Shown one piece after another: positions 5,518 through 36,397 of a DNA stretch of 64,000 bases. The DNA lies in assembly GCA_031260245.1 (NCBI GenBank), contig JAIRKH010000056.1:874-64873 (forward strand). Direction: 5' to 3'. The notes under the pieces were generated by a model. That model was not told the origin of the DNA, did no database searches, and worked only from the letters and a program-made list of their open reading frames with translations. Within the stretch, counting starts at the first letter, position 1; every line of letters begins with the position of its first letter. The position numbers and the translations under genes are program-made. Source of the DNA: Treponema sp. GTDB taxonomy: Bacteria > Spirochaetota > Spirochaetia > Treponematales > Breznakiellaceae.

Positions 5518-5541
5518 TCTTTTACCTCGTTCACAAAAATA

Positions 5542-6205
5542 TTATGTAGCGACGCCAGACGCCCGCGGTGTCAGACACCCGCGCCATGCCCGCCCCCGCT
5601 CTTCGGCGCTCTTCGGTGTCAGGCACCGACAAGAAATCAGTGTAATCTGTGGACAACCGCAGGAACTAATTCCGAGCCAGCCGAAACCCAAGGGCATTGC
5701 CCCCACCCGACGGGGGTCCCGTCACCCCGATAGGCGGCACGGACGAGCCGCGCCGTCCTGTTCCACGCCCCGCCGCGTACCACGCGGGCGAAGCCGCCGT
5801 CCGCGTCCCGCCAGACACGCCTCCATGCCAACGGCGCCAGACACTTCGTCTTCACCGCTTGCGTCTGACTCCCGCTGTCCCTGCTGATGCTCCCCATACT
5901 GAACGTCCCAGCGGACACCGGAACAAACCCCGCAGGCGTTCCCTCTGTCGCTTCCTCCAGCTATCCGTACGTGTTCGCAGGCGTCGGAGAACTCCCGCGC
6001 CATGCTCGGTTTGTCGACGACAGGCGCCCATTCAGCGCCGCCGCGCGAAGCTCGACACAATCGACTCCCCGTCCGTCCCGTTCCCGCCCGTAAACGGAAA
6101 CAACGCGAGGCTCTCCTTCTTCTCCCTGAAAAGGTACTATTTCTCATGTACGCACGCGGACATCGCGATAAGCGCCGCTAGTACGAATAGTAAGCGTTTT
6201 TTCAT
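5542..6205 (-). pseudogene. decayed FGE-sulfatase (SUMF1) domain lipoprotein
   Basis: An intact lipoprotein-type signal MKKRLLFVLAALIAMSAC (ATG at 6205) hits a stop after 22 codons. Other frames downstream carry the FGE motifs FVPVSAGTFSMGS and RVVRGGAWN...RAAYR, but far too close together, which implies an internal deletion. There are at least two frame breaks. The region is very GC-rich. Confidence 0.6.
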
Positions 6206-6365
6206 GCGTTTCTCCTTGTTTGAAATAGTTTTATAATTATAGTACATTTTCCCCTTCTGTCAAGTGATCCGGGAGGGGGAGAAAGCCGCGTAATGATTTG
6301 GCAGGATCAATTCGTGATATTTTAGCGATTCTTCCAATTTTTTCAAAAAAAACAAGAAATTCCCC

Positions 6366-21951: not shown

Positions 21952-22980
21952 ATGGCCCGTAAAAACCTTTTACAAGGATTTAAACACCCTAAGAGGGTTA
22001 CTTTTGAACATGGTGAGTCTCGGCAGGATTATGGAAAGTTTATCGTTGCCCCGTTTGAACCGGGCTATGGTACAACGATAGGCAACACCTTACGCAGGAT
22101 TCTGCTTTCTTCCATACAAGGAAACGCTATTACGGCTATCAAGATAACATCCTATGGCAAAGATGGAACGCCTCACGCTATTTCCAGCGAGTTTGAGAAC
22201 ATACCTAATATCATAGAGGATACGCTTGAGGTTATCAATAACCTGAAACAAATTCGGTTTAAACTCCCAGACGACCAGGAATCCTGTACGTTTTTGTATG
22301 AGTGGTCTGGAAATCGTGAAATCAGAAGCGATGATTTTGCTAAAGAGGGGTTGTTAGAGGTTTTAAGCGGCGGCCAACATATCTTGACGATGATGGAAGA
22401 CGCTCATCTTGAGTTTGAGGCGCAAATAGATTTGGGGCGGGGTTATATGCCATCTGAAATAATTGAACAAAATGTCGAGGTTATCGGTACTATTCCCATA
22501 GACGCCATGTTTTCGCCGGTGAAGAAAGTGAAGTATGTTGTAGAACCTGTGCGCGTGGGGCAGAGGAGCGACTATGACAAGCTGACGCTTGAAATATGGA
22601 CGGACGGCACCATCAAACCGGACGATGCGCTTGCCGAGGCGGGCAAAATTGCAAAAGAGCATTTCTCGGTTTTCATCAACTTCGACGAAAATGGTTTGCT
22701 TTCGGACAATTCAGGAGAAGCCGGCGACGACGCCATTCGTTCCGTCCTTGAGACGAGTATAGAAGAATTAGAACTATCGGTGCGGTCATACAATTGCCTT
22801 AAAGGGGCGGACATTAAGACCATCGGCGAATTGATTCAAAAAAACGAAGACGACTTGAACAAAGCTCGTAATTTTGGGAGAAAGTCCCTTCAAGAAATAA
22901 TTGACAAGCTCAAAGAATGGAATTTGAGTCTCGGAACTACCGATATCTCGAGTTTAAAAATCAAAGCAAAGGAAGTTTGA
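21952..22980 (+). CDS. rpoA: DNA-directed RNA polymerase subunit alpha
   Basis: 342 aa. The C-terminal-domain motif ...[23 protein letters not shown]... is present. Confidence 0.96.
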
Positions 22981-22981
22981 A

Positions 22982-23416
22982 ATGAAACACAGACGGGGTT
23001 TTAACCCTCTTGAAATGATGTCGGCGCACCGTAAAGCCACGCGCCGTAATATGATTACGTCTCTATTCAAATATGAGAGAATCAGAACTACGAAGCCCAA
23101 GGCGCTGGAAATCCGTCGGAGCGCCGAAAAATTGATAACTCGTGCAAAAGTCGATTCTGTCCACAACCGGCGCATCGCATCGAGCCGTCTCTTTGACGAA
23201 GGCGTTGTCGCCAAGTTATTCAACGACATCGCCCCGCGTATGAAGGAACGGAAGGGAGGGTACACACGCGTCCTCAAGCTCGGTTTGAGAGGAGGAGACG
23301 CGGCGGAAATCGTCATGATGGAACTGGTTGATTTCAAACTGGACACGGAAGGCTCGAAAAAGAAGACCGAAAAAAAGACGGCGAAAAAAGAAAAAGCCGT
23401 AGGTAATAAAAAATAA
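22982..23416 (+). CDS. rplQ: 50S ribosomal protein L17 (Lys-rich C-terminal tail)
   Basis: 144 aa; [24 protein letters not shown]... Confidence 0.95.
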
Positions 23417-23424
23417 GGAGGCGA

Positions 23425-23607
23425 ATGATGTCGAAGGCGCATAGAGGCAAGGGGATAAAAGACTTGCCCTCTCATGGAAGGGCAGTGTGTCCGCTCTGCA
23501 ACAGAACAGCGAAAGTTCTTTACGAGGAAAAAACCGCGGACAAATCCGTCAAGGTCTGCAAGATATGTAAAGCGGCCGTCAAACACGGTAAAAAAAACCT
23601 GCCGTAG
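23425..23607 (+). CDS. small basic zinc-ribbon protein (CxxC...CxxC), function unknown
   Basis: 60 aa with SD AAGGAGG. Starts 8 nt after the rplQ stop. Contains CPLCNRT...CKICK. No family recognised. Confidence 0.55.
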   Translation: MMSKAHRGKGIKDLPSHGRAVCPLCNRTAKVLYEEKTADKSVKVCKICKAAVKHGKKNLP

Positions 23608-23782
23608 CGTCGACAAGAGGAAATTATGACTATCAAAAACGATGTTTCTTATTTTTATGAATAGTTCTTGACGCCATAAAAATAGATCTCCATAGCGGAA
23701 GAGAATTAGGAAAAACGATAAATGTATATAAAGATAACCGTATATAGAAATCACAGGGGCGTGAATGTCTTAAATTATAAGC

Positions 23783-23804
23783 GGGGGGAGGTCCCCCCCC
23801 CCCC
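23783..23804. repeat. G6-AGGT-C12 homopolymer hairpin / slippage-prone tract
   Basis: Read directly: GGGGGG at 23783-23788 and C12 at 23793-23804, 73 nt upstream of the first ATG of the operon. Confidence 0.9.
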
Positions 23805-23820
23805 ATTGTATTTCCCTGGG

Positions 23821-23844
23821 TGTGAACGTCTTTGTGAACGTCTT
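23821..23844 (+). repeat. perfect tandem 12-mer TGTGAACGTCTT x2 (third, imperfect copy CGTGAATGTCTT at 23760-23771)
   Basis: Read directly. The three copies bracket the G6/C12 tract. Confidence 0.9.
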
Positions 23845-23876
23845 ATTGACAATTCTTGTTAGCAAAGGATGGTCAA

Positions 23877-25820
23877 ATGTTTAGTTTACAAGATGTCAAG
23901 TGCGATACCGAAAAAAAATCACGAATTGAGCCTCTTTTGAGATTTCAAGCTTTTGATGAGAAAAATAAGCCGCTTGAGAGTATCCGCTTTGAGAATAACA
24001 CGCTCTATTTTATCATAGGCGAATCGGGCGTTGGAAAATCGACTCTGTTGAGTTTTTTGACGTCTCCCTTTTCAGAAGATCCTATAAAAAACGGCGCGAT
24101 ACATTTTGACGCTGTTGCCCTTCCATTAAAAAAAGAAGAAAACAATACAATAAAAATTGAAAACTCAACCGCAAAATCTAAAAAGCTTGAAAAGGCGTAT
24201 TTCGCCTATCTGAGAAATACCCTCGCCTTCATTCCGCAGATGACGGATTCTTTTCATCCGTCGATTCCCATCCTTGAACAGTTGAAAGAAACTTTTGAGG
24301 CGGCGGCTATCGCCCCTTCCCCCAGTAAATTCCAACGCTTACAGAATTGGGTTAAGAAAGTCGACGAACCTGTAGACTCTAAACCGTTCAGGGATTTGGT
24401 TAAAAGACTCGGTGAAAGAGCGGGATTTACGCGCGTCGAGGTATCCGAAGATCTTTCAACCCTTAAAATTTGGGATAAAAAAGAGTACGAAGACAAAGAA
24501 GGCGAGCCTTGTACCATCGTTGATATAGGCGGCGCGGAGGGGCGGACCGTCGTTCTTGAAGGCGAATTATCCAGCGGACAATTACAGCGGCTTCTTGTTT
24601 TAAAGGCGCTCATCCAATTTGAGACCGCGAATGTTTTGTTCGGAGATGAATTCCTGGTGAACTTTTCCTTTCTCGAAGGAAACAAGGTGCTGGATGGTCT
24701 CATTGAAGCGTTTAAGGAGAGAAAAGAAACCGGGCAGGCGACCGCGGCATTCGTCTTTCACGACTTGTCCTATCCGTGTATCCGTCAGCAAAAAGACGAC
24801 GTCAACGCCCGCGTCATGTTGCTTGAAGAAACGCCGGAAAGTAAAGCCGCAAGCCAGAATAAAACCATCGCGGTTAGGACCATTCCTTTGCGGGACTTTT
24901 GGTCCGAAGACCTGCCACAGGACAGTCCTTTTTTTCGATTCAGACAGAGTTATCAGTCTTTGTCCGGTGATTATATAATCAATCCAAAAAATCAACCCCC
25001 TTCGGCGCCTGTTTTTGAAAAAAACATATACGAGTCCTACACGTATCCCGGAAAGACGGAATGCGTCTACGAAAACCTACATTTTGAAATCAAAGAAAAT
25101 CGTTTCATTATCCTGACCGGTTTTTCCGGATGTGGAAAAAGCACATTCTGCAAACAGTTAATTGAAACCATACCGCAAGAAGAAAAGTGGAAATACCGCT
25201 ATTTCCCTTCTCGTACTCGTGAAGCCCTGTCTTTTGGGTCTCAGGTACGCGTTGAAGAAGACTTGCGTACCATCTATGGGTTCTACAACCATATAAAAGA
25301 CGTCCGCGATGAGAAAGAGAGAATCAGCCGCCATTTCCGCGATGTGGAATTGTTTCAAAAATTTGAGGCGTTTTTACAAAAACCTATATTCTCGCTTTCC
25401 GGCGGAGAATTACAACGCTATTGGTTCGCTCGAATCACTCTACTCGAAGATATACCTCCCGAAAAAAAACCGAAACTGCTCGTATTTGACGAAAGCGTCT
25501 CTAGCCTCGACTGCGTGACAAAAGATATTCTGATTAAGTTCGTCGTTGAGAGACTTTTTGTAGAAGAGAACTTCGCCGTTTTATTTATTACCCATGACTT
25601 GCGCGATATAGGCGTAATCTGTCAAAATTTACACAATGTCAAAAGAACGGACTTGTTTGAACATTATGAATTATTCAATAAAAAACTGTATCGCGTTAAA
25701 ACTCCCTCTTTTAAGCAATATTGGGACAATATTTTAGATAATAAATTTAACGACTACGAGGAATCAGGAACTGGTACGGTTTACCATTTTAAGCTAAAGG
25801 AGGTAATACGGAAACCATGA
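23877..25820 (+). CDS. fused two-NBD ABC ATPase, OppD-OppF-like
   Basis: ATG at 23877 follows AAAGGA. NBD1 has GESGVGKST, Q-loop-like FIPQMTDSFHP, LSSGQLQR, LFGDEF and FVFHDL. NBD2 has GFSGCGKST, LSGGELQR, LLVFDESVSSLD and FITHDL. Confidence 0.8.
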   Translation: MFSLQDVKCDTEKKSRIEPLLRFQAFDEKNKPLESIRFENNTLYFIIGESGVGKSTLLSFLTSPFSEDPIKNGAIHFDAVALPLKKEENNTIKIENSTAKSKKLEKAYFAYLRNTLAFIPQMTDSFHPSIPILEQLKETFEAAAIAPSPSKFQRLQNWVKKVDEPVDSKPFRDLVKRLGERAGFTRVEVSEDLSTLKIWDKKEYEDKEGEPCTIVDIGGAEGRTVVLEGELSSGQLQRLLVLKALIQFETANVLFGDEFLVNFSFLEGNKVLDGLIEAFKERKETGQATAAFVFHDLSYPCIRQQKDDVNARVMLLEETPESKAASQNKTIAVRTIPLRDFWSEDLPQDSPFFRFRQSYQSLSGDYIINPKNQPPSAPVFEKNIYESYTYPGKTECVYENLHFEIKENRFIILTGFSGCGKSTFCKQLIETIPQEEKWKYRYFPSRTREALSFGSQVRVEEDLRTIYGFYNHIKDVRDEKERISRHFRDVELFQKFEAFLQKPIFSLSGGELQRYWFARITLLEDIPPEKKPKLLVFDESVSSLDCVTKDILIKFVVERLFVEENFAVLFITHDLRDIGVICQNLHNVKRTDLFEHYELFNKKLYRVKTPSFKQYWDNILDNKFNDYEESGTGTVYHFKLKEVIRKP

Positions 25821-27562
25821 GAAAAATATTTACGGCGGTTCTTATTTTAATATGCGCGATTCTGCCGGCGCAACAGACTTTCGTCAAATTTGAGGAAATA
25901 AAAGCTCCTGCTTTTCAAGAATTAACGGACGAGCTTAACAGAGCTATTCAAGCCGCTCTGAAAAAAGCGTTTGGAGATATATTTATAGACATAACCAAAT
26001 ATGTCCCGCGTGAGAATAAAGTGTATTACTTTTCGTTCACGCTCTCTCAAGAGAGGACAACGGATTTTATACTCAAGATGATTATCAAACCTCGTAATGA
26101 AGAAAATGAATTTTTGTTTGACGGTATATCGTTTGATTTTGAGCGGAAAGATTCTCTGATTTCTTTTCTTCAAAAACAGTTAATCGGTGAATATATGCTT
26201 GATAACGGAGAGTTTAAAGAAGATGCGGTGCGGCAAAGGATAAATTCCATGAATTTGGAGAGAGGCGCGGTAAAAATCGCGGTAACGATTACGCCGAAAT
26301 TCGTCTTCCCCGACCAAATTTCTGCATGGAACACGCTGGATACGGCAGTTGGCGTATCGGGTTTTGAAATAAAGGAAAGCTACAACGGCGGTGAATTCGT
26401 AGTTGCGCCGTACTCTTATAACGTTGAAAAAGAGGAATTCAGCGGCGATTATTCAAGCTTTTCGCCTGAAATACAAGACTACCTTGACTCGCTCAAACCG
26501 CAAATCGCCGTTTTTGAAAACGGAGAATGGGCGCCGAAAGGCGATAAGGTTTCTCTCAAAGCGGGAATAGATGAGGAGCGGGAATATCGAACGCGTTATT
26601 CTTTTGTTCCCGAGACAGGAATAAAAGGAGATTATACTTTTGCGCTCGCGCCGCCAGTAGAAAAAACCTACACGGTCCGCCCTTTGCCTGAATACCGATT
26701 TTTCGCCGATAAAGTAACGGTTGATGAGAATGGAATATCCGTCGCCTATAGCGATAGCGATATTCTTATCTACGATATTGACGCTTTCGGGATAGGAGGC
26801 GACGCTCCGCGTGGAAGAATCCGTGAAAAATTGATTCTGTATATCCTCATAAATAAGGATATGGCGAAATTTATGAATGAGAATAGGGGGAATATTGATT
26901 TTTCCGAATCAAAGCAATTTGATATGACCGTTTCGTTGATAGAGAGTAGAAATTCATACGTACGAGAGGCGATAGCCGATAACAGCGGCGCAAGTCGAGA
27001 AGATCTACTCACGGAACTTAAGTCTGTGATGAATGACGGAATTGCGGTAGAATTAGGCGCGGAAGACATAGATGTGGAGAAAGCTGATTGGTTCATAGCG
27101 TTGACCTTTCGCCATGACGCCATTCCCGATAACGCTGTTGTCGCGTTAAAGGACGTTCGTTCCGAAAACGCGGGTATGTCTAAAGAAACCATTGACGGAA
27201 TCAGCGCTATCTTTTCTACAATGACGGAGATGGAGAAAGAATGGGTCAACATGGCGAAAGTGTTGTGTTATTTTGGGAATCGAGCAAAGACTTCGGAATT
27301 CTTGAATAAGTATGAAGAGGCGAATAAGTCGTTGCCTCCGAAAGTTAAGCGGGATATTGCGGTTCTACGGAACTGGAGTCCCATAGGACCGCGGGGCGCG
27401 CTATTAACTATTCGGAAAAAAAGCGAAGAGGAGCGCCCTGATTTCCGTTTTTCCAGAGGGAGCGTTACTGGCATGAAGATGCGTGAATATATGGAATCCG
27501 GAAAAGTCTCAGATAAAGAGAAAAAAGATTTGTATATAGTATTTTTTGGAGAAGAAATATGA
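25817..27562 (+). CDS. exported protein, no recognisable domain
   Basis: 581 aa. The start overlaps the ATPase stop (ATGA), with AAGGAGG upstream. N-terminal signal MRKIFTAVLILICAILPAQQ. Confidence 0.7.
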   Translation: MRKIFTAVLILICAILPAQQTFVKFEEIKAPAFQELTDELNRAIQAALKKAFGDIFIDITKYVPRENKVYYFSFTLSQERTTDFILKMIIKPRNEENEFLFDGISFDFERKDSLISFLQKQLIGEYMLDNGEFKEDAVRQRINSMNLERGAVKIAVTITPKFVFPDQISAWNTLDTAVGVSGFEIKESYNGGEFVVAPYSYNVEKEEFSGDYSSFSPEIQDYLDSLKPQIAVFENGEWAPKGDKVSLKAGIDEEREYRTRYSFVPETGIKGDYTFALAPPVEKTYTVRPLPEYRFFADKVTVDENGISVAYSDSDILIYDIDAFGIGGDAPRGRIREKLILYILINKDMAKFMNENRGNIDFSESKQFDMTVSLIESRNSYVREAIADNSGASREDLLTELKSVMNDGIAVELGAEDIDVEKADWFIALTFRHDAIPDNAVVALKDVRSENAGMSKETIDGISAIFSTMTEMEKEWVNMAKVLCYFGNRAKTSEFLNKYEEANKSLPPKVKRDIAVLRNWSPIGPRGALLTIRKKSEEERPDFRFSRGSVTGMKMREYMESGKVSDKEKKDLYIVFFGEEI

Positions 27563-28794
27563 CAGGCAAACAGGACGCTTTTAGTAGAGGCGGGACTTCA
27601 AAAAGAAACATGAGAAAAATAGTCGCCATAGGTATTATGTGCGCGGCGCTTATTATGTGTGAAAAAAAGTACACCGTTGCGTTCAACGCCGAGGGCGGAA
27701 CAGCCTGCGCATCTCAAGAGGTGAACGCGGGCGTGGCAGCGGTACTACCAGCGACAACACAGAACGATTATATCTTTAACGGCTGGTATACAAGCGACGG
27801 TACTAAAGCGGGCGATGCGGGCGCGTATTACACGCCGTCCAGTAGCGTTACCTTGTACGCGCGATGGACCGATAATTCCTCCGCGGTTTCTCCTACTGTT
27901 TACACCGTTGCGTTCAACGCCGAGGGCGGAACAGCCTGCGCGTCCAAAGAGGTGAACGCGGGCGCGACAGCGATACTACCAGCGACAACACGGAGCGGCT
28001 ATACCTTTAACGGCTGGTATACGAGCGGCGGTACCAGAGCGGGCGATGCGGGCGCGTCTTACGCGCCGTCCAGTAGCGTTACCCTGTACGCGCGATGGCA
28101 GGAGTCGACTCCAACAGTACCGATTTCCTTTGTGATACGCGACCAGACGACCGGTCCGATTCCCTATGGACGGATTCTGGTTGGAACGGTAACGGAGGCG
28201 GGGGCTTCCGGCGTCATTAACGGCGAAAGCGAGATGAATAAATTGATCAGAAACGCCAGAGAAAGCATTGGCGAGTTGTCGCGTCCTATTATCGGAGGAA
28301 ACCTTATTAAAGGAGGAATAGGGCTTAACGACACGCTGTTCTTTCTTTTAGTGGAACCCCCCGACAACAGAAGCGGATACGTACAGTTTGTGACGGTACC
28401 GGCTGTCCGCCCTTCGTCTCCCATACCGGTTGAATTCAATCTACGAAACAAGGAGGTTACAGTCGAGTTTTCCATTGATTATAACGGCGATAAAGATACG
28501 TTTCAAAACAACGCCGACGTTGACGTAACGTTTTTTTACCGACCTAATGACAATGAGGGAAACAACGACACTGGGAATTTCAAAACATATTCCACAAAGG
28601 TTCGACTTCAAGGGAATAATAAAGGCTTCATAAAATTGAACAGTCGCGAGTTAGAGATTTCGCCTTGGACGAGGATTGAATACCGAATCAAAGTAACCGG
28701 CAAAAAAATTTCAGGACTGCCTTTCGTTTCGGGTGAAAAGCTGCAGGTCTTCAACGAGATAAAGTCTGTGGAACTTTATTTAGGAGAAAGTTAG
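27559..28794 (+). CDS. lipoprotein with two Listeria-Bacteroides (Flg_new / InlB B-repeat) domains
   Basis: 411 aa with an ATGA overlap. Signal MRKIVAIGIMCAALIMC. There are two copies of YTVAFNAEGGTACAS.EVNAG....LPATT...Y.FNGWYTS.GT.AGDAGA.Y.PSSSVTLYARW. Confidence 0.75.
   Translation: MTGKQDAFSRGGTSKRNMRKIVAIGIMCAALIMCEKKYTVAFNAEGGTACASQEVNAGVAAVLPATTQNDYIFNGWYTSDGTKAGDAGAYYTPSSSVTLYARWTDNSSAVSPTVYTVAFNAEGGTACASKEVNAGATAILPATTRSGYTFNGWYTSGGTRAGDAGASYAPSSSVTLYARWQESTPTVPISFVIRDQTTGPIPYGRILVGTVTEAGASGVINGESEMNKLIRNARESIGELSRPIIGGNLIKGGIGLNDTLFFLLVEPPDNRSGYVQFVTVPAVRPSSPIPVEFNLRNKEVTVEFSIDYNGDKDTFQNNADVDVTFFYRPNDNEGNNDTGNFKTYSTKVRLQGNNKGFIKLNSRELEISPWTRIEYRIKVTGKKISGLPFVSGEKLQVFNEIKSVELYLGES
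27670..28098 (+). repeat. 231-bp tandem duplication (2 copies, second truncated), in frame, encoding the two Flg_new domains
   Basis: Units start at 27670 and 27901 with an identical 41-nt opening tacaccgttgcgttcaacgccgagggcggaacagcctgcgc. The remainder is highly similar by eye. Confidence 0.9.
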
Positions 28795-28806
28795 AAAAGG
28801 TAAATT

Positions 28807-30885
28807 ATGCATAAGAAATCAATCGTCTTTCTTTTTTTATTCCCCGTCATAGCGCCCCTATTCGCTGAAAGCGTTTCTTATACGCCGCGAGTCGCGGCGT
28901 CTGCCAGTGGAAACAATATCTACGCCGTATTCGTTTACAACGGCGTGCATGACGGAAAACCGGGCGGAATTACGCTATGGCGGAAAAACGGCGCCCCGCG
29001 CGTCAAGGAATTCGCGCTTGCGTCCTGTGAATTCTATGGGTTCTTCTTCTTGGAAAACTATCTATTCAGGTATAATTACTTGAGCAGCGTCCTGGATTAC
29101 TACGACGTTGAAGAACTTTTCAAGTTAAATCCCACGAATAATCTTTTTGAAGTCAAAGACGTTCTCAGTAAGCGTAAACAACAATTTAAAGACGTTAAAC
29201 AGGTCATTACGGCTGACGGTTCCGTCTATTTTTTGACAGGAAACATAGTGAAACGCCTCGTCGATATTAAAGACGGTAAAACAAAAGATATAGCGCCGCC
29301 GAAAGGGAAAAAGATTGATTTCTTCGCCGTCATAGAACAGAGCGCAAAATGGGAAGAAGAGAACAAGGCTTTCTCTGAGTTTTTAAATGACGTCAAAAGC
29401 GCGTTTACCGCAATAGACGCTCTCAAAAAAAATAGACAAATTGACCGACAAATGAAAGACGTTTTTGGCTTTACCCTCGACAGCAACAATGAAGATGTTC
29501 TTGACAAAATCAAGAATAAAGCTCAAGAGGTAAAGAGAAAATATGCGGATTACTTCGAGGAAACGGCTCTGCTTGGGAGGGACATTCCCACGATAGAGGG
29601 TAGCCCGACAACGGAGTCCGCCGTAGCGAAGCTACGTACCGCGTATGACAGTAAGGTTAAAGAGAGAGATGCGAGAGAAGGCGAATATAAGACCATAGCC
29701 AGTGAAATTCTTGCGAACTATACCGGCGAATTAAGCAATTTGTCTAAAACGGAGGAACTTAAAAAGAACCAGACGAAAAGGAAAATAAGCGCCTTAAATC
29801 TTTTTAAACAAAAAAAAGAGGAAATATGGCGGGGAGAAGTTGACCGTATCGTTGAAACCAAAACGCAGGGAACGCCTTATTCCTCAATAAAGACGCTTGA
29901 CGCTCTTACAAAAGCAAATGGGATATATGGGAAATATAGTAAATCTACAACTGATTATGACAAATTGCTTATGGATTTTGACTTCATTAACAACGTGGAA
30001 AAAGATATGGCGAAAGACTTGAACGGCTTATACAAGAAGAATAAAGATAACGTAATAATCAAAGCTGGTTTGGAAAAAACGAGAGACCTTCTTTTAGACA
30101 AAAAAAAATTTACCGGGATTTATACCGAAATCAAGAGTAAAATAGAGTCCAATGAAGACTTAAAACCATATATTAATACCAATTTATCTTTTAAGCAAGA
30201 CGCGGCGGAAACCGAATTTTATAATATTCTAACCCCTTATTTGCAGGCGGAAGCGGATGCGATACTAGCGGAGCGAGCAGTTTTACGGGCATACGCCGCC
30301 ATGTTTAAGACAGAGCTTGAGCTTGGAAAAAACAGACCCGCGGAATCGTCCCCAATCATCTATATAGCGAAAGAAAGGTTTGACGAAATAACCGTATCTA
30401 TGGAAAGAGAAACCCCGTCGATGGATATACCGCTGAAGTCGCAGTGGTTTGACGACTATCTACCGATGTATTCGAAGTTCTTCCCATTCGGGCAGGTTAT
30501 TTCGCCGGTTCTGTTTAAGCCGCGGGAAAAGAAAATGATTTCGACCGGTGATTTCGGTTTTAGGTCAGATGACGAATTTGCCCTTTTCCGGCAAGGAGAC
30601 GATGTGTATGCTGTCAAGAAGAGCTGGACTGATGATGAGTATGACGTCTTCAATAGTCAAAGTTTTACGCGTCTGTTTTCAAAAAGCGCGATTCTCGGAA
30701 CGCGGGAACGGTGGAACGGCATTCTCTACACAACGTTAGACGCAATAGTATGCGCTGGTGAAGACGACATTGTAAACATAAAAGACGGTCGGGACGTAAA
30801 TATTCTTTCCGTCAAAGCAGGCGGGAACACAATCCTGTCTATCCGTAAAGACGGCGACAGATTTAATTTAGACTCAATTAACTAA
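28807..30885 (+). CDS. exported protein, no recognisable domain (central K/E-rich helical region)
   Basis: 692 aa; signal MHKKSIVFLFLFPVIAPLFAES. Confidence 0.7.
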   Translation: MHKKSIVFLFLFPVIAPLFAESVSYTPRVAASASGNNIYAVFVYNGVHDGKPGGITLWRKNGAPRVKEFALASCEFYGFFFLENYLFRYNYLSSVLDYYDVEELFKLNPTNNLFEVKDVLSKRKQQFKDVKQVITADGSVYFLTGNIVKRLVDIKDGKTKDIAPPKGKKIDFFAVIEQSAKWEEENKAFSEFLNDVKSAFTAIDALKKNRQIDRQMKDVFGFTLDSNNEDVLDKIKNKAQEVKRKYADYFEETALLGRDIPTIEGSPTTESAVAKLRTAYDSKVKERDAREGEYKTIASEILANYTGELSNLSKTEELKKNQTKRKISALNLFKQKKEEIWRGEVDRIVETKTQGTPYSSIKTLDALTKANGIYGKYSKSTTDYDKLLMDFDFINNVEKDMAKDLNGLYKKNKDNVIIKAGLEKTRDLLLDKKKFTGIYTEIKSKIESNEDLKPYINTNLSFKQDAAETEFYNILTPYLQAEADAILAERAVLRAYAAMFKTELELGKNRPAESSPIIYIAKERFDEITVSMERETPSMDIPLKSQWFDDYLPMYSKFFPFGQVISPVLFKPREKKMISTGDFGFRSDDEFALFRQGDDVYAVKKSWTDDEYDVFNSQSFTRLFSKSAILGTRERWNGILYTTLDAIVCAGEDDIVNIKDGRDVNILSVKAGGNTILSIRKDGDRFNLDSIN

Positions 30886-30899
30886 AGGAGGGAATTAAC

Positions 30900-31964
30900 A
30901 TGAAGAACGTATTTTTTGTTGTATTCTTCTTGCTGTTTTTATGCTCCGCGTTTGCGGAGACGGAAATTAAAGAGTTTTTTGACGAGGTTTTTCAATTTGG
31001 AGTAGATATTAACAATTTAACGCCCGCGAATCGCTCTGAATTCTATGAAACAACAGCGAAAAAGATACTCGGCGAAAAAATCAGCGGCGTCAAACCAGAA
31101 AGCAGGACGAAAGGAATGCCGATAGTCTCTTTTTTAGACGTTGTGGTGAACGATTTATCCTCAAAGCAATGGGATAAAATAAAAAAGATGCAAGGGTTTG
31201 AAGAATTTATAAAATCGTTTCAGCTTACAATGCCCAGAAGTCCCAATACCAAGGACTTAGATAAAAAATATGACGATAGCTATAAACGGTGGCATACCGC
31301 CGTTACAGAGAAGGAATATTCTATCGTTAAGGCTGTATGGGACGACATTAAAGCTTTCCTTGTCAGAGACGATTCCAAGAACCGTACGGCTTTTTATTCC
31401 GCGTTGGATGGAAAGGGAGATTATAAGAAATTACTTCAAGAAGAATTAGGTAATCGGAAAGAAAGATATAACGAAAGATATAACGATTGGCTTGCATCTG
31501 CCGACAAGAAAGTGAAAGCCGCAGGCAAAGCGAAAGATTATGACGAATTTGTCAGGAAATACAATGAATTAAAGGACTATAAGAACAAAGAATACGCGGA
31601 GCTTATAGAATCTGCGGAACCAAAATTAGCGGAATTTGTCAATAAATATAAAGACAGGAAGAGCGACCCCTCTGTCAACGAAGTGTTTCTAGCGCTCTTT
31701 AAAGCGGCTGATAAATCGTTCGAAGAACTAGACAAAGATATAGGAAAGAAGCCGGAGTTTAACGAGTCCGCGGAAGAAAAAGATATAAAAGATAAATGTT
31801 GGGAGGTTGCTCGAACAGAAGACGCCTATCTCGAAATGGAAAAAACGTTACTCCGCTACGTCTATGCGGGAATATACAAGAAAATTGACAAGAAAATTTA
31901 CGAGGAAATCAAAGAGCAAAAAAAAAATGACGAAGAAAGGAAAAGCCAAAAAGGAGGCGAATAA
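30900..31964 (+). CDS. exported K/E/D-rich (coiled-coil-like) protein
   Basis: 354 aa; SD AAAGGAGGG; signal MKNVFFVVFFLLFLCSAFAET. Confidence 0.7.
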   Translation: MKNVFFVVFFLLFLCSAFAETEIKEFFDEVFQFGVDINNLTPANRSEFYETTAKKILGEKISGVKPESRTKGMPIVSFLDVVVNDLSSKQWDKIKKMQGFEEFIKSFQLTMPRSPNTKDLDKKYDDSYKRWHTAVTEKEYSIVKAVWDDIKAFLVRDDSKNRTAFYSALDGKGDYKKLLQEELGNRKERYNERYNDWLASADKKVKAAGKAKDYDEFVRKYNELKDYKNKEYAELIESAEPKLAEFVNKYKDRKSDPSVNEVFLALFKAADKSFEELDKDIGKKPEFNESAEEKDIKDKCWEVARTEDAYLEMEKTLLRYVYAGIYKKIDKKIYEEIKEQKKNDEERKSQKGGE

Positions 31965-34043
31965 ATGAAAGAAAAAATTATTGCGGGCGTATTTTGTTTT
32001 GCGGCGCTGTGCGGGTATGCGCTTAATATTAGCATACCGGTAAAGAACGACTTTTCGCTCGACCCCGTCATCGGCATAACCGGCGAGGAAAGCGACTCGG
32101 ATTCGCGTTTCGTCCAAAGGATGATATTCTCGCCCTTGGTCATGCCTACAACGGACCCGCTTATTGACCCGAACTTCAGCTACGACATATCGGTATCCAT
32201 GATTGACAAAGGTGAATATTTCTCTGAAAAGAGTAAGCAGTTCGCCGAAATATACAACCTCCAAGCGCCTTTCGAAGATCCCACGCGGATTTATCGCGCG
32301 CAGCTACGAGACGATATGAGCTTCAAATGCGGCGACTCTAAATACAACGGCAAGGTTACGGCGGAGGATGTCGTGTTTTCCTACAGAGTCGCGCAAACAA
32401 CCTTGAGTATCAAGACGAGACAAGGCGCCTATGATAATTACACCAACGCGATACTCAGGGCCCAGTTAGCGGACATGGAGCAAATAAAATATATAAACGA
32501 GAGAACCATTGAGTTCGTGTTCAAGACTCCGCGGAACACCAAGGACTTCATCAATTTTCTCGTCTACACCCCGATTCTTTCGGTGAATCAGCTCCGCGGC
32601 GCAAAAGAACAGGAGAGAAATTCTTACATTTTCGGTAAAACTGGCGACAGTAAAGATTACGACATACGGCAGTACAAGACCGTTTACGATTTTGAGACTT
32701 TGCCTGCAAGTTACGGTCAGTTTTATGTGTCTGATAAAATAGTGTATTCCTCAAATAAAAAAGGGGCGCCGCTTAAAACCGGCGCGGTCAAATTAAGAAG
32801 AAATAGAGACTGGAACCTCAACAAAGATTATGCCAAGGACGGACGCTCCTCTAAAGCTATTGAGACGTGGGAGACGATTCATAAGGATTACCAAAACGAC
32901 AGTTCCATAGTCGTTAGCAAGACGAATCAGAGTATCCTCGTAACAAACGTCGTAGGCACTTCAACTTTACTGGTAAACTATCCATTGACCGTGAATGATT
33001 ATATGTCTAATGTCAATTTCTTTAATATGAGCGGCAACTATAGGAAAATAGCCGTTGAACAGATGTTTATTTCCTACAAGCTCTATGGGCTTTTGTATTC
33101 ATCAAGCGCCCAAAACAAATATCTGTTTGATACAACCGAAGTCAGGACTTTCTTCAGAGAATGTCTCAATCGTTCCGCTCTCATGGAAAGTCTAAAGGTA
33201 GATCCTGCCATCCTCGAAAATAGACCGGCCGCGTATAAGGAATTGATAGAAGATAAGGTGGAGATTGTTCCGCTGTACTACCCGTTCTTCGCGGGTAAGG
33301 AACCGGAAGCATCGTCCCAAGATAAACTCGACAGACTTTACCGAGAGCTCCGCGAGAAGGACGTCAGTTACCAGTCTGATATTAATCTTTCTAAAGACAT
33401 AAAGAACTTTGAGACCCTGACCGGCGACCGCCAAGCCCGCCAAGCCGCCATACGGGGTTATCTAGCGGGAGAATTACCCGAAGCGATGCTAAAACATCTT
33501 GCCCAAAAACTGCCGTCCCAGATAAAAGAAGGCGTCTGGAACGTCAGGATACTCTACGACGATAACGATAAGATAGCGAAGCTCATTTGCGATAGATATG
33601 TGATTAATATAAATAAAGTGGGGCAATATTTAGAAAGGCATGGTTTTAAGACAAGAATCAAGGCGGAACCTGTAATATTATCCAAAACTAAGAAAGGAAG
33701 AATCTCCGACGTCGACAAAAAAGCGTTTGATATAGCCGTCTACGGGTGGAATTACCGGTTTGACTTCTTGGGCGAATTTATGAGCTTCCTCGATAAAAAC
33801 GCGGGCGGTTTCATATCTTCGGACCTTTACGCGGATTACGACGAATTTCTCAAAGAAATAGGCAAGAAATCGGTACCCGATAGGATGTTTGAAATAGCGG
33901 ACAAGATAGTCAGAAGTGAAATAATATCGACGCTCTTCGCTGTAAAAAATTACCTACTATACGACAAAGAGAAAGCCGAAGTCCCGACGCTGAAAGATCT
34001 CGGTCCGCCTGCCATTATGTATCCATATTATTGGGGAAAGTGA
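31965..34043 (+). CDS. oversized ABC substrate-binding protein, family 5 (OppA/DppA-like)
   Basis: 692 aa. The ATG abuts the preceding stop. Signal MKEKIIAGVFCFAALCG. Family-5 pattern SLDP...RMIFSPLV... and YRAQLRDDMSFKCGD....GKVTAEDVVFSYRV. Confidence 0.65.
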   Translation: MKEKIIAGVFCFAALCGYALNISIPVKNDFSLDPVIGITGEESDSDSRFVQRMIFSPLVMPTTDPLIDPNFSYDISVSMIDKGEYFSEKSKQFAEIYNLQAPFEDPTRIYRAQLRDDMSFKCGDSKYNGKVTAEDVVFSYRVAQTTLSIKTRQGAYDNYTNAILRAQLADMEQIKYINERTIEFVFKTPRNTKDFINFLVYTPILSVNQLRGAKEQERNSYIFGKTGDSKDYDIRQYKTVYDFETLPASYGQFYVSDKIVYSSNKKGAPLKTGAVKLRRNRDWNLNKDYAKDGRSSKAIETWETIHKDYQNDSSIVVSKTNQSILVTNVVGTSTLLVNYPLTVNDYMSNVNFFNMSGNYRKIAVEQMFISYKLYGLLYSSSAQNKYLFDTTEVRTFFRECLNRSALMESLKVDPAILENRPAAYKELIEDKVEIVPLYYPFFAGKEPEASSQDKLDRLYRELREKDVSYQSDINLSKDIKNFETLTGDRQARQAAIRGYLAGELPEAMLKHLAQKLPSQIKEGVWNVRILYDDNDKIAKLICDRYVININKVGQYLERHGFKTRIKAEPVILSKTKKGRISDVDKKAFDIAVYGWNYRFDFLGEFMSFLDKNAGGFISSDLYADYDEFLKEIGKKSVPDRMFEIADKIVRSEIISTLFAVKNYLLYDKEKAEVPTLKDLGPPAIMYPYYWGK

Positions 34044-34069
34044 CGGGGGTGTTCTTAAAGGATTACATT

Positions 34070-36397
34070 ATGTTGATTGTTAAGAGAATCGTCAAGAATT
34101 TTTTTATGTACCTTTCGTTTCTCGTTGTTATTGGTATTCTGCTCTACATAAAAGACTCGGAATTTTCAGTTTTTTCAATGCAGACGCAGATAATATTCGA
34201 GTCTATGACGAGCTTCTTTTTTATACTTGTGGCGATGCTCGTCTACCTCTGTTTTCTTTTGACCATAGGCGGCGGGATAGCCTTAAGCAGTCAGCGGTAT
34301 TTCTCAAACACGGAACTGCCGAAAATGGGTCTGTATGCGGTGAGCATCGTTCCGCCTGTTGTCGTATCGCGTTGTCTTATCGCCGGATTCCGCGACCAAA
34401 CAGTCGTCCTCGTTACAGGCTATCTCGTCTTAAGTTTCGTGTTTCACGCGGCGGTAAAGAAAAGATTCGCCATGAGACTGTGGAATTTGCTCAAGAGAAA
34501 GGCGCTTGTTTTTGCCGCGGACTTGATATGCGAAATCCTGCTCTTTATCGCTGTTTTATTTATAGTAAGTTGTACTCCCTTAATGTCTCTGCCTTTTCTT
34601 CGTTTCAATATAGACCATACTTCGGGCTGGTACGCGCGATTGTTTTTCATCGTTATTTTTAACAGCGTAAATTATCTCAGTATAGAATACATCGTTTCGA
34701 TTTTGAATATTGAAATAAAAAAATCTCATGTAAAGGCTTATTTCTTATACCACGAAAGCGCGCTCCGTCGACTGTGGTATATTGTGAGAACGAGCCTTCC
34801 GATGATTCTCAAAAAAATAAAGATGTTTCTCTCGTGGCTTATTTCGTTCATTATTCTATTTGAGATGGACAACAGCGTTTTTGACTCGATAGGACAACGG
34901 ATTAACATACAAGCCGAAAATCAGCAACTCAACAATATTTTCCCGGTATTTATCGTCATATATCTTCTACTATTTATTATAAACACGGTATTTGATATTA
35001 TTATTGACAAAAATTCTCTTGAAAAAGATTCTCAAAAACAAGAAAATGAAAAGAATGTTAAATTTCACGGTTCAAGCAATATTCTCAAAACAATAAGCGC
35101 GTTGGTTGCGGAGCGATTCTTTAATAAGAAAACTATTGGCGGAAAGATAACCGCCGCAATATTTACCGCATTTGTCGCGGCTCTGCTTTGGGGCTGTTTC
35201 TATTACGCGCCCTTCTATGTTTTCTTACAGCATTATGGGTATGACACGAGTCGGAATTTTACGGTACGCGATGTCGCGGACCAGGCTTTTATGACCGTAA
35301 CGACGACGGAGGATATGGACAAGAAGCTCTGCGTCAGGGAGAAAAAGGGCTTATGGAATATTTATTCCGTTGCGGAATTCTCTATAGTTACCTTTGACGG
35401 GGAATGTATGAAAGTCATACCGACCATGCATACAAACGTTAATAATCCCGATAATCCTCGTCCGAACATCCGCGTCATACAAGGCGGTAAGGTCGAGGAA
35501 GGAGGCGTTCATCTCGTACAATCAACGCTTAAAAACGTAACTTTCGGTAACGCCGTTGCGGTTCCAAGCATTTTTGATTCGTTTATTCCTTTCATTCCTT
35601 TTGACCTTGAAAGAAGCTCTGGTTCGGGTCCAGACAATCCGAATAAGTTATTTTTTCCTGTATTTGTTTTTTATCTATTTTATCTATGCTTGTTAATCGC
35701 TGTGGTTTATCTGGTGGTTGTCTTTGTTTACGCGCTGATTCTTCACGGCAAAGAATACAAGGCAGCCACTGCCCTTGGAAACTGGCTAAAAAGTTTTATT
35801 TTTGCGACTCCGTTTGTCATTGCGCTTTCGGTTTTAAGAACGTTTTTCCCGGACGGCAACATGGTTTCCCACATAGAAACGTTAGCCGCGTTTCCGCCTG
35901 TTTCAAATAGTCTTTTTATCAATAGTATTTTTTCATACTGTTGTTTTATTGCAGTTCTCCTGCTGTACATTCTGCCCGGAATGATAGAGGATTTATCTAG
36001 TTCCATAAAAGAACTGGTACATTCTTCTGAAATAAGTTATCTGAACAATATCGGAATGAATAAGCAGGACATATTCAACGTTATAACGCGGAAATACGGC
36101 GTTCAAAATATCAAGCGTATTTTCGTGGAAAATTTTCTGTTTATCTGCGTATTGCAATTTTTTACCGCATATTGTCTTCAGCTTAACCAGTTTTTGGATT
36201 ATTTTGGGACCGGTTCGGTTTTAAGTTTTGAGAACGTGTTTTCCAAAGTGATGAGAGCTGTGACGCCGGAACTGATAGTCTTCATGTCAAATATCGGAAA
36301 AATTACCGAGGGCGCTAAGATCGCCGTTCTGCATTGCGTCTTGATTCTGGCGATGTATGGAAGTATCTATTTCTTGATGAAAAAGGAGAAGAGATGA
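34070..36397 (+). CDS. fused OppB-OppC-like ABC permease (polytopic, 775 aa)
   Basis: ATG at 34070 follows AAAGGA. Many hydrophobic segments. Two degenerate EAA-loop-like regions: KKSHVKAYFLYHESALRRLWYIVRTSLPMIL... and SEISYLNNIGMNKQDIFNVITRKYGVQNIKRIFVEN...LDYFG. A large soluble loop separates the halves, as in the OppC N-terminus. Confidence 0.5.
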   Translation: MLIVKRIVKNFFMYLSFLVVIGILLYIKDSEFSVFSMQTQIIFESMTSFFFILVAMLVYLCFLLTIGGGIALSSQRYFSNTELPKMGLYAVSIVPPVVVSRCLIAGFRDQTVVLVTGYLVLSFVFHAAVKKRFAMRLWNLLKRKALVFAADLICEILLFIAVLFIVSCTPLMSLPFLRFNIDHTSGWYARLFFIVIFNSVNYLSIEYIVSILNIEIKKSHVKAYFLYHESALRRLWYIVRTSLPMILKKIKMFLSWLISFIILFEMDNSVFDSIGQRINIQAENQQLNNIFPVFIVIYLLLFIINTVFDIIIDKNSLEKDSQKQENEKNVKFHGSSNILKTISALVAERFFNKKTIGGKITAAIFTAFVAALLWGCFYYAPFYVFLQHYGYDTSRNFTVRDVADQAFMTVTTTEDMDKKLCVREKKGLWNIYSVAEFSIVTFDGECMKVIPTMHTNVNNPDNPRPNIRVIQGGKVEEGGVHLVQSTLKNVTFGNAVAVPSIFDSFIPFIPFDLERSSGSGPDNPNKLFFPVFVFYLFYLCLLIAVVYLVVVFVYALILHGKEYKAATALGNWLKSFIFATPFVIALSVLRTFFPDGNMVSHIETLAAFPPVSNSLFINSIFSYCCFIAVLLLYILPGMIEDLSSSIKELVHSSEISYLNNIGMNKQDIFNVITRKYGVQNIKRIFVENFLFICVLQFFTAYCLQLNQFLDYFGTGSVLSFENVFSKVMRAVTPELIVFMSNIGKITEGAKIAVLHCVLILAMYGSIYFLMKKEKR

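What the first reader, a model, noticed from the sequence alone, without database searches (positions are those of the whole stretch)
23608..23876. G6-N4-C12 homopolymer hairpin bracketed by three copies of a 12-mer, immediately upstream of the operon
Seen in sequence: GGGGGG (23783-23788), AGGT, then twelve C (23793-23804). TGTGAACGTCTT occurs twice in perfect tandem (23821-23844), and an imperfect copy CGTGAATGTCTT lies at 23760-23771 on the other side of the tract. A TTGACA follows at 23846-23851, and the first ATG is at 23877. Established: long G/C homopolymers change length by slipped-strand mispairing. Poly-G tracts upstream of tpr genes in Treponema pallidum are known to modulate transcription. 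Inference: this could be a phase-variable (ON/OFF or rheostat) switch combined with a repeated transcription-factor site controlling the surface-protein/ABC operon. A 12-nt homopolymer stands out against the rest of the window.
Basis: partly seen in the sequence, partly recalled or inferred. Interest (0 to 1): 0.62.

Follow-up and report, generated by a model that had tools for sequence, protein, structure and literature searches.

The report
Poly-C hairpin between two Treponema operons
A real but probably ordinary boundary between two operons in a termite-gut Treponema: a G-run/C-run hairpin that looks like the stop signal of the ribosomal-protein operon, whose 12-C arm is likely to change length by slippage, though nothing here shows it switches the next operon on or off.

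Summary
G6-AGGT-C12 lies at 23783-23804, TGTGAACGTCTT x2 at 23821-23844, a 10/12 copy at 23760-23771, and TTGACA at 23846-23851. C12 is far beyond chance (about 0.004 expected per window), and an independent Logan assembly of the same run reproduces it.

The 269-nt spacer lies between rpoA-rplQ-TP_0214 and a 14.4-kb operon of an ABC ATPase, exported proteins and a BspA-type LRR protein. The source is an uncultured termite-gut Treponema.

TTGACA cannot be the -35. The ATG at 23877 is confirmed by N-terminal conservation, so the transcript would start after it. No sigma-70 promoter spans the tract.

The G-run complementary to the C-run gives an RNA hairpin of -18 kcal/mol. It has an A-rich 5' flank and a U-rich 3' flank, and sits where sister lineages carry a canonical terminator. 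I read it as the terminator of the upstream operon, with a slippage-extended arm.

Indirect support for lability or contingency:
- A sister strain has C5TTC10 where two others have TTCCTTT.
- Two of the three other operons of this gene order fetched here carry different tandem arrays upstream.

Tract-length heterogeneity and transcript ends could not be tested, because only contigs and no RNA runs were available.

The parts
23425..23607 (+). Last gene of the upstream operon: a small Zn-ribbon-like protein of the TP_0214 family. It follows rpoA (21952-22980) and rplQ (22982-23416).
   Evidence: ORF. Called as 59 aa with Pfam PF27208 TP_0214 on the Logan contig. The same rpoA-rplQ-TP_0214 order is seen in L090 and L092-L097.
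23714..23745 (.). Imperfect tandem 16-mer: AACGATAAATGTATAT / AAAGATAACCGTATAT (81% identity).
   Evidence: the repeat finder family D3. Function unknown.
23760..23771 (+). Distal imperfect copy of the 12-mer, CGTGAATGTCTT (10/12; both differences are transitions).
23772..23782 (+). A-rich 5' flank of the hairpin (AAATTATAAGC). It pairs loosely with the T-rich 3' flank.
   Evidence: Inverted repeats I1/I2, 19-20-nt arms, 70-74% complementary. RNA fold.
23783..23804 (+). G6-AGGT-C12 hairpin core. As RNA it is GGGGGG.GG / UCCC loop / CCCCCCCC, leaving C residues to spare.
   Evidence: Sequence. With its flanks (23772-23816) the RNA MFE is -18.0 kcal/mol on the + strand and -21.8 on the - strand. 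Flagged as terminator-like on both strands. Chance statistics.
23805..23813 (+). U-rich 3' tail ATTGTATTT (6 T in 9), directly after the C run.
   Evidence: tail criterion met for the + strand stem 23783-23802.
23821..23844 (+). Perfect tandem pair of TGTGAACGTCTT. Candidate operator or activator site, or a neutral 12-nt duplication.
   Evidence: TRF score 48.
23846..23876 (+). Small hairpin in which TTGAC / ATTCTT pair with AAGGAT / GTCAA, burying the Shine-Dalgarno sequence (AAAGGA 23864-23869).
   Evidence: Folds (-9.1 kcal/mol, z -1.9: weak).
23877..25820 (+). First gene of the downstream operon (23877-38259): a fused double ABC ATPase, 647 aa.
   Evidence: Pfam ABC_tran, two stretches. 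Homologues up to 52% identity, all of termite-gut Treponema type. Start fixed by N-terminal conservation.
23633..23806 (-). Antisense ORF that begins ATG + G11 inside the tract (57 aa). Considered and rejected as a gene.
   Evidence: In frame at tract lengths 9, 12 and 15 only. An ORF this long arises in 6% of shuffles of the spacer. No credible homologue among 1.84 billion representatives: 2 hits, both with many matched stretches (24 and 7) in much longer proteins, which I read as repetitive or low-complexity matches. No promoter-like site on the - strand.

Best explanation
The 269-nt spacer is an ordinary operon boundary in an uncultured termite-gut Treponema. The G6-AGGT-C12 hairpin most likely acts as the intrinsic, possibly leaky, terminator or insulator at the 3' end of the highly transcribed rpoA-rplQ-TP_0214 operon.

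As nascent RNA, G6AGG pairs with eight of the twelve C residues. The hairpin has an A-rich stretch before it and the U-rich AUUGUAUUU after it.

The C arm is longer than pairing requires. That is what replication slippage on a homopolymer produces, so the tract is probably length-variable in the population. Because the G arm can pair with any register of the C run, a change of one or two residues should alter termination little. I therefore expect at most a mild rheostat on read-through into the ABC/surface-protein operon, not an ON/OFF switch.

The tandem TGTGAACGTCTT pair lies 33-56 nt before the ATG, where the downstream operon's own weak, probably factor-dependent promoter must lie. It may be a regulator site or a neutral duplication.

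Shown: the sequence, its non-randomness, the fold energies, the position, the lack of a usable promoter around the tract, and the terminator at the same place in relatives. Inferred: termination, slippage, and any regulator binding.
For: 1. Position. This is the only G+C-rich stem-loop flagged on the + strand between the TP_0214 stop (23607) and the next gene. Sister lineages L092, L093 and L094/L095 have a canonical terminator (GCCTCTC-TTGG-GAGAGGC followed by a T run) after TP_0214.

2. Structure. RNA MFE is -18.0 kcal/mol, against -12.6 for that canonical terminator. The flanks are A-rich and T-rich and partly complementary (I1/I2). The tail has 6 U in 9. The scan flags it as terminator-like on both strands.

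3. Complementarity. A G run of 6 sits 4 nt from the C12 although only three G runs of 6 or more exist in 64 kb. A promoter SSR has no need of a complementary run; a hairpin does.

4. Promoter. TTGACA is too close to the conserved ATG to be a -35, and no promoter-like pair of hexamers spans the tract. The genome does use consensus sigma-70 promoters elsewhere.

5. Lability. Poly-C tracts in this clade appear by expansion of pyrimidine seeds. They also occur upstream of a housekeeping operon: L092 has C5TTC10 27 nt before the TTGAGT-17-TATAGT promoter of an isochorismatase/NAPRTase operon.
Against: The U tail is interrupted (C-AUUGUAUUU). The hairpin lies 175 nt after the stop codon, further than in the sister lineages (about 50 nt).

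Terminator-like matches are not enriched over shuffles in this genome (38 against 30.1, and 30 against 27.3), so the scan has little specificity. Dinucleotide-preserving shuffles fold nearly as well (z about -2 for the 45-nt core).

No transcript data exist. Twelve C residues are more than a terminator needs. Distinct tandem arrays upstream of operons with the same gene order hint that repeats here may be selected for regulation.
Confidence: 0.4

Rival explanations
1. Phase-variable (ON/OFF or rheostat) transcriptional switch. Slipped-strand changes in C12 would alter the spacing or helical phase between the distal 12-mer (23760) and the two promoter-proximal 12-mers (23821, 23833), or alter a promoter element. 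That would vary expression of the ABC/surface-protein operon from cell to cell.
For: C12 is far beyond chance and longer than the hairpin needs. It ends 73 nt before the first gene of an operon that encodes signal-peptide proteins, Flg_new repeats and a BspA-type LRR protein.

The 12-mer copies flank the tract at start-to-start distances of 61 and 73 bp. Operons with the same gene order carry other arrays upstream: (CTACA)17.8 in L001 and a 15-mer x5.9 in L002.

A sister strain shows gain or loss of a poly-C tract. There is a precedent within the genus in T. pallidum tpr and tp0126 (PMC7864442), and a poly-C precedent in the Bordetella fim promoters (PMC1891110).
Against: No promoter element overlaps or spans the tract, and TTGACA is unusable as a -35. 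No regulator gene lies in the operon, and the 12-mer does not recur at other promoters in the 64 kb.

The 12-bp repeat period is off the helical repeat. The complementary G6 is left unexplained. L003 and L004, other members of the operon family, have no array. L092's tract sits before a housekeeping operon. No length variant was seen, though only contigs were available.
Confidence: 0.2
2. No selected function. The C run is a neutral slippage expansion in dispensable spacer DNA, the G6 and the 12-nt duplication are incidental, and termination and initiation happen elsewhere in the spacer or through Rho.
For: L092 shows that such tracts arise sporadically from TTCCTTT-like seeds and are absent from sister strains. 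Short tandem duplications are common in the window. The fold z-scores are modest. There is no conservation to lean on, since the nearest RplQ relative is only 90% identical and has different downstream genes.
Against: A G6 lying 4 nt from the C12 is improbable by chance. The spacer has no other terminator candidate on the + strand.
Confidence: 0.2
3. Rho-dependent termination site. A C-rich stretch on the nascent untranslated RNA after the last gene recruits Rho. Poly(C) is the classical Rho activator (established knowledge).
For: The tract reads as C on the sense strand, both here and in L092 after the same operon.
Against: There are only two cases. Here at least half of the C run is predicted to be paired with the G run, whereas rut sites are unstructured and about 70 nt long. 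In L092 a canonical intrinsic terminator already precedes the tract.
Confidence: 0.05
4. Translational phase variation of a small antisense gene. The minus-strand ORF 23806-23633 starts ATG + G11 and is open (57 aa) only when the tract is 9, 12 or 15 long.
For: The frame analysis shows the classical layout of a homopolymer right after a start codon. AGGGA lies 6 nt upstream of the ATG (read).
Against: An ORF of this length arises in 6% of shuffles of the spacer. There is no credible homologue among 1.84 billion representatives. No promoter-like site lies on the minus strand.
Confidence: 0.03
5. A tiny inserted palindromic unit. The 49 nt at 23772-23820 form a hairpin with A/T-rich ends and are flanked by 12-nt direct repeats (10/12), like a target-site duplication. 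The right-hand copy would then have duplicated once more.
For: The geometry.
Against: No second copy of any 11-mer of the unit lies at a comparable site in the window, and none is in the related loci.
Confidence: 0.04
6. Sequencing or assembly artefact: poly-G/poly-C from two-colour chemistry, or a chimeric join.
For: The data come from a metagenome, and homopolymers are error-prone.
Against: An independent k=31 (as I recall) Logan contig spans the site with 1.4 kb and 3 kb of flanks, at even word depth 30.8 and with 0 differences. Words of that length cover the whole 22-nt structure together with unique flanks. Both flanks are Treponema genes in a plausible order.
Confidence: 0.03

Closest known systems
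Intrinsic (Rho-independent) terminators, including bidirectional ones with an A tract, G+C stem and T tract
   Same: A stable G+C stem-loop (-18 kcal/mol) lies right after the last gene of an operon, with an A-rich 5' flank and a U-rich 3' flank. Relatives have a canonical terminator at the equivalent place.
   Different: The stem is made of two homopolymers, with a 3' arm twice as long as needed. The U tract is interrupted. It lies 175 nt from the stop codon. No transcript-end data exist.
Poly-G tracts in Treponema pallidum promoters (tprE/G/J, tprF/I, tprL, tp0126)
   Same: Same genus. A G/C homopolymer of 8 or more lies upstream of genes for putative surface proteins. Those tracts vary in length within isolates and modulate promoter activity (PMC7864442).
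   Different: In T. pallidum the tract lies inside the mapped promoter: between -35 and -10 in tp0126, and ending 4 nt before the start site in tprL (PMC7864442). Here no promoter contains the tract, which ends 73 nt before the ATG, reads as C on the sense strand, and is paired with a G run. No CRP-type palindrome is present, although PMC7864442 reports a CRP homologue acting at the tprE/G/J promoters.
Bordetella fim2/fim3/fimX 'C-stretch' promoters
   Same: A long poly-C (7-19) lies upstream of surface-structure genes, next to a conserved 'fim box' promoter element. Tract length sets promoter activity (PMC1891110).
   Different: In Bordetella the C-stretch is part of an experimentally defined promoter (PMC1891110). 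From my own knowledge, not checked here, it lies between the activator BvgA's binding site and the -10 element. Here the tract lies upstream of the repeated 12-mers, not between them and a -10. No activator is known.
Tandem direct-repeat operators of winged-helix (OmpR/PhoB-type) response regulators
   Same: Two head-to-tail copies of a short motif sit where a -35 would be expected, plus a distal third copy. The promoter hexamers there are weak.
   Different: The period is 12 bp rather than 10-11. No cognate regulator gene lies nearby. The motif is not found at other promoters in the window. Binding is untested.

Membership tests
SSR-driven transcriptional phase-variation locus (homopolymeric tract in a promoter) | Homopolymer long enough to be hypermutable (G/C of about 8 or more) | tested here: met
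   C12 at 23793-23804. It is the only G/C run longer than 7 in 64 kb, against 0.004 expected.
SSR-driven transcriptional phase-variation locus (homopolymeric tract in a promoter) | Tract lies within the promoter: between -35 and -10, over the -35, or between an activator site and the core promoter | tested here: not met
   No sigma-70-like hexamer pair spans or abuts the tract. TTGACA 23846-23851 would place the start site after the conserved ATG at 23877. The tract ends 73 nt before the ATG and lies upstream of the tandem 12-mers. This rests on sequence only; no start site has been mapped.
SSR-driven transcriptional phase-variation locus (homopolymeric tract in a promoter) | Tract length is polymorphic within a population or between strains | not testable with these tools
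   Only one run holds the locus and it is served as contigs, which drop rare variants. One contig was found and no variant. Indirect evidence comes from a different tract in L092, which is absent from sister strains L093 and L094/L095.
SSR-driven transcriptional phase-variation locus (homopolymeric tract in a promoter) | Expression of the downstream gene depends on tract length | not testable with these tools
   No RNA run holds the region. Reporter assays are needed.
Intrinsic terminator | Stable G+C-rich stem-loop in the transcript | tested here: met
   MFE -18.0 kcal/mol for 23772-23816 on the + strand, with 8 G-C pairs, one bulge and a 4-nt loop.
Intrinsic terminator | U-rich tract immediately 3' of the stem | tested here: inconclusive
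   The tail is C-AUUGUAUUU, 6 U in 9 but interrupted. It passes the scan's loose criterion. That scan is barely enriched over shuffles in this genome.
Intrinsic terminator | Lies downstream of the last gene of an operon, on the same strand | tested here: met
   It lies 175 nt after the TP_0214-family stop codon. Relatives carry a canonical terminator after the same gene.
Intrinsic terminator | Transcripts end at the site | not testable with these tools
   No RNA data are available.
CRP-type site (TGTGA-N6-TCACA), as reported at T. pallidum tpr promoters | Inverted TGTGA/TCACA half-sites 6 nt apart | tested here: not met
   No match with 2 or fewer mismatches lies in 23608-23876. The window total of 17 does not exceed chance at 14.6. 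The TGTGA half-sites here are direct repeats.
Tandem direct-repeat response-regulator operator | Two or more direct repeats spaced about one helical turn apart, at or near the -35 | tested here: inconclusive
   Two perfect copies with a 12-bp period lie at 23821-23844. The position relative to a start site is unknown. The only -10-like hexamer that leaves room for the SD is GACAAT at 23848-23853.
Tandem direct-repeat response-regulator operator | Cognate regulator gene nearby, or the motif recurring at other promoters | tested here: not met
   No regulator was found among the genes scanned: none in the operon, and only a GAF/sigma-54 activator at 47135-48661 among the neighbours. The only near-copy of the motif (1 mismatch) lies inside a gene at 29156.

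The most novel reading that the evidence does not exclude
Termite-gut treponemes, which are mutualists and not pathogens, may run an accessory ABC/surface-protein operon as a contingency locus. Independent hypermutable repeats have been recruited upstream of operons with the same gene order: C12 here, (CTACA)18 in L001, and a palindromic 15-mer x6 in L002. In this genome the homopolymer forms one arm of the terminator of the ribosomal-protein operon. Tract length would then tune read-through from a very strong upstream operon. That would be a phase-variable terminator rather than a phase-variable promoter.
Probability: 0.12. Interest if true: 0.6.

Novelty: new member of a known kind. Interest (0 to 1): 0.3.

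Why it matters
If the tract only forms a terminator arm, this is routine annotation of an operon boundary in an uncultured termite-gut spirochaete.

If its length does vary and tunes the downstream operon, it would extend homopolymer-based phase variation from pathogenic treponemes to gut mutualists. It would also add a terminator-based variant of the mechanism. In that case the repeat arrays upstream of operons with the same gene order would mark a family of surface or transport loci under fluctuating selection in the termite gut.

Either way, a count of tract lengths in the raw reads of the source run is cheap and decisive.

Tried and rejected
- Rfam found nothing in 22500-24500 at E up to 1. 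At gathering score, the whole window yields only tRNA-Phe.
- TTGACA as a -35 is rejected on geometry against the conserved start codon.
- A relaxed promoter scan of 23560-23900 gave only weak pairs. A sigma-54 -24/-12 motif was looked for by eye around TGG 23817-23819 and does not fit.
- There is no CRP palindrome in the spacer.
- Close relatives were sought to test conservation. The ABC ATPase has no relative above 52% identity, and RplQ has none above 90%. No same-species sequence exists, so spacer alignment is impossible.
- Read-level heterogeneity could not be tested. Only one run holds the locus and it is served as contigs. No RNA runs exist.
- A long 88-nt RNA hairpin at 23751-23838 pairs UCACAGGGGCGU with ACGUCUUUGUGA. 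With the core fixed and the flanks shuffled, z is -2.3 and p is 0.025, which is too weak to build on.
- The antisense ORF starting in the tract arises in 6% of shuffles and has no homologues.
- Island flanking repeats, or further copies of the spacer's 11-mers in the window, were not found in any meaningful form.
- The 12-mer motif in 16 related Treponema loci gave one 1-mismatch hit, in the minus-strand DeoC-family gene of L092.

Full report
**Observation**

- G6 at 23783-23788, AGGT, then C12 at 23793-23804.
- TGTGAACGTCTT twice in perfect tandem at 23821-23844.
- A 10/12 copy, CGTGAATGTCTT, at 23760-23771.
- TTGACA at 23846-23851.

The repeat finder returns the same three-copy family.

C12 is the only G/C run longer than 7 in the 64 kb. 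An order-1 Markov model expects 0.004 such runs, and none appeared in 300 simulated windows. Only three G runs of 6 or more exist in the window, so a G6 lying 4 nt from the C12 is not a coincidence.

The tandem 12-mer is less special. TRF lists 24 short arrays at score 30 or more in the window. Copies of the 12-mer with 2 or fewer mismatches occur ten more times.

One detail is wrong. An out-of-frame ATG lies at 23869. The in-frame start is 23877, preceded by AAAGGA at 23864-23869.

**Source and context**

The locus is held by one public run, a termite-gut metagenome. A Logan contig of 5859 nt, depth 30.8, matches 23300-24600 without a single difference. The tract is therefore not a quirk of one assembler, although the reads are the same.

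Upstream lie rpoA, rplQ and a 59/60-aa gene of Pfam family TP_0214. This is the tail of the ribosomal-protein cluster (S7, EF-Tu, SecY and others).

Downstream an operon runs from 23877 to 38259. It encodes:
- a fused double ABC ATPase;
- several proteins with signal-like N-termini;
- a Flg_new-repeat protein;
- a 788-aa membrane protein;
- a BspA-type LRR protein.

It ends before a tRNA-Phe gene on the other strand. The nearest RplQ is 90% identical and the nearest ABC ATPase 52% identical. All are from termite-gut Treponema assemblies. No same-species genome is available.

**Is the tract in a promoter?**

The start codon at 23877 is fixed by conservation: MFSLQDVKC here, MFSFQNIWC in L001, and full-length tblastn matches from residue 1.

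If TTGACA 23846-23851 were the -35, the -10 would be ATGGTC 23869-23874. The transcript would then start after the ATG, so this hexamer is not the -35.

The standard scan finds no promoter-like site in the spacer, and a relaxed scan finds only weak pairs. The same scan finds many consensus promoters elsewhere in the window (24 against 14.7 expected, and 35 against 18.7). The only -10-like hexamer that leaves room for the SD is GACAAT at 23848-23853. It would place the tandem 12-mers over the -35 region of a weak, factor-dependent promoter. That is inference.

No CRP-type palindrome is present.

**The hairpin as a terminator**

As RNA, 23772-23816 folds to -18.0 kcal/mol: G6AGG pairs with eight C residues around a UCCC loop. 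A canonical terminator in a relative folds to -12.6.

The flanks are A-rich on the 5' side and T-rich on the 3' side, and are partly complementary. The tail after the C run is AUUGUAUUU. The scan flags the site as terminator-like on both strands, and it is the only such site on the + strand in the spacer.

Three sister loci (L092, L093, L094/L095) have a canonical terminator shortly after TP_0214: GCCTCTC-TTGG-GAGAGGC followed by a T run. In L090 a tRNA promoter follows instead. The end of TP_0214 is thus the end of the conserved operon and a synteny break.

A hairpin explains the complementary G6, which a promoter SSR does not.

The weak points of this reading:
- The U tract is interrupted.
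- The hairpin lies 175 nt from the stop codon.
- The terminator scan has low specificity in this genome.
- No transcript data exist.

**Evidence bearing on lability and contingency**

*A sister strain.* L092 has C5TTC10 exactly where sister strains L093 and L094/L095 have TTCCTTT. The tract lies 27 nt upstream of a TTGAGT-17-TATAGT promoter of an isochorismatase/NAPRTase operon. Poly-C tracts therefore arise and disappear between close strains in this clade. They are not confined to surface-protein loci.

*The operon family.* The window, L001, L002 and L003 share the order ABC, p581, p411 C-terminal part, with a p692a match in L001 only. Of these four:
- L001 has (CTACA)17.8 in the leader, after a TTGACA-16-TATATA promoter.
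- L002 has a 15-mer x5.9 in the spacer before the ABC gene.
- L003 has none.

L004, a more distant member of the family, has an ordinary terminator and promoter. Three of five is suggestive, but the sample is small.

**Rivals checked**

*Antisense ORF.* An ORF starts ATG + G11 in the tract and is open only at tract lengths 9, 12 and 15. Such an ORF arises in 6% of shuffles. It has no credible homologue among 1.84 billion representatives and no promoter.

*Long imperfect RNA hairpin, 23751-23838.* It scores z -3.2 overall, but only z -2.3 (p 0.025) once the core is held fixed.

*SD-burying hairpin, 23846-23876.* It is weak (-9.1 kcal/mol, z -1.9).

*Other checks.* No Rfam family matches. No flanking or dispersed copies of the spacer exist in the window.

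**Comparison with known systems**

The tract resembles the poly-G tracts of T. pallidum tpr and tp0126 promoters and the poly-C stretch of the Bordetella fim promoters in length and in the kind of genes downstream (PMC7864442, PMC1891110). It fails the positional criterion of those systems, which is a tract inside the mapped promoter. The two functional criteria, length polymorphism and length-dependent expression, could not be tested.

It meets two of the four terminator criteria tested or testable here. The U tract is inconclusive, and transcript ends could not be tested.

**Verdict**

The feature is real and non-random. It is most likely the terminator hairpin at an operon boundary, with a slippage-extended C arm (confidence 0.4). 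A phase-variable switch is possible but unproven (0.2), and a neutral product is equally possible (0.2).

It is a new member of a known kind, of modest interest. The raw reads of the source run would settle the question of variability.

Noticed in passing
L001 643-731: A perfect pentanucleotide array, (CTACA)17.8 by TRF (visible as CACTA repeats in the sequence). It lies after a TTGACA-16-TATATA promoter at about 558-585 and before a small lipoprotein gene (878-1366), which precedes the closest homologue of the ABC operon found (52% identity). This is a strong candidate simple-sequence contingency repeat in another termite-gut Treponema.
   Followed up: partly
L002 3792-3878: A 15-nt unit (CTAAAGTCCGGCGGA by TRF) x5.9. 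Each unit holds the small palindrome CGGACT-AA-AGTCCG. It fills the spacer between a VWA-domain gene and the ABC ATPase gene. Sister locus L003 lacks the spacer, and there the ABC gene abuts the VWA gene.
   Followed up: partly
L092 4984-4999 (against L093 about 4866-4872 and L094 about 3366-3372): C5TTC10 in one strain where two sister strains have TTCCTTT. It lies 27 nt upstream of the TTGAGT-17-TATAGT promoter of an isochorismatase/NAPRTase operon, and is again in the spacer that follows rpoA-rplQ-TP_0214.
   Followed up: partly
window 5520-6240: A stretch of 65-72% G+C in a 48.5% G+C window, with no clean ORF. Minus-strand fragments in different frames read like FGE-sulfatase/SUMF1 motifs (RVVRGGAWN...AAYRG and GFRLAR; recognised from memory). 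This suggests a frameshifted pseudogene. A perfect TTGACA-16-TATAAT promoter on the minus strand at 6263-6236 points into it.
   Followed up: partly
window 27670-28098: A 231-nt tandem duplication (1.9 copies, 90% identity) inside the Flg_new (Listeria-Bacteroides repeat) protein gene 27559-28794. It corresponds to its two repeat domains.
   Followed up: no
L002 1-3740 and L003 1-3892: In these two relatives the ABC/surface operon is preceded by a Tubulin_2 (PF13809) gene and a VWA-domain gene. The window lacks this pair at that position.
   Followed up: no
window 23714-23745 and 23626-23664: The same spacer holds an imperfect tandem 16-mer (81% identity). It also holds a 12-codon ORF, ATGACTATCAAAAACGATGTTTCTTATTTTTATGAATAG, preceded by AAGAGGA. 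Neither was tested.
   Followed up: no
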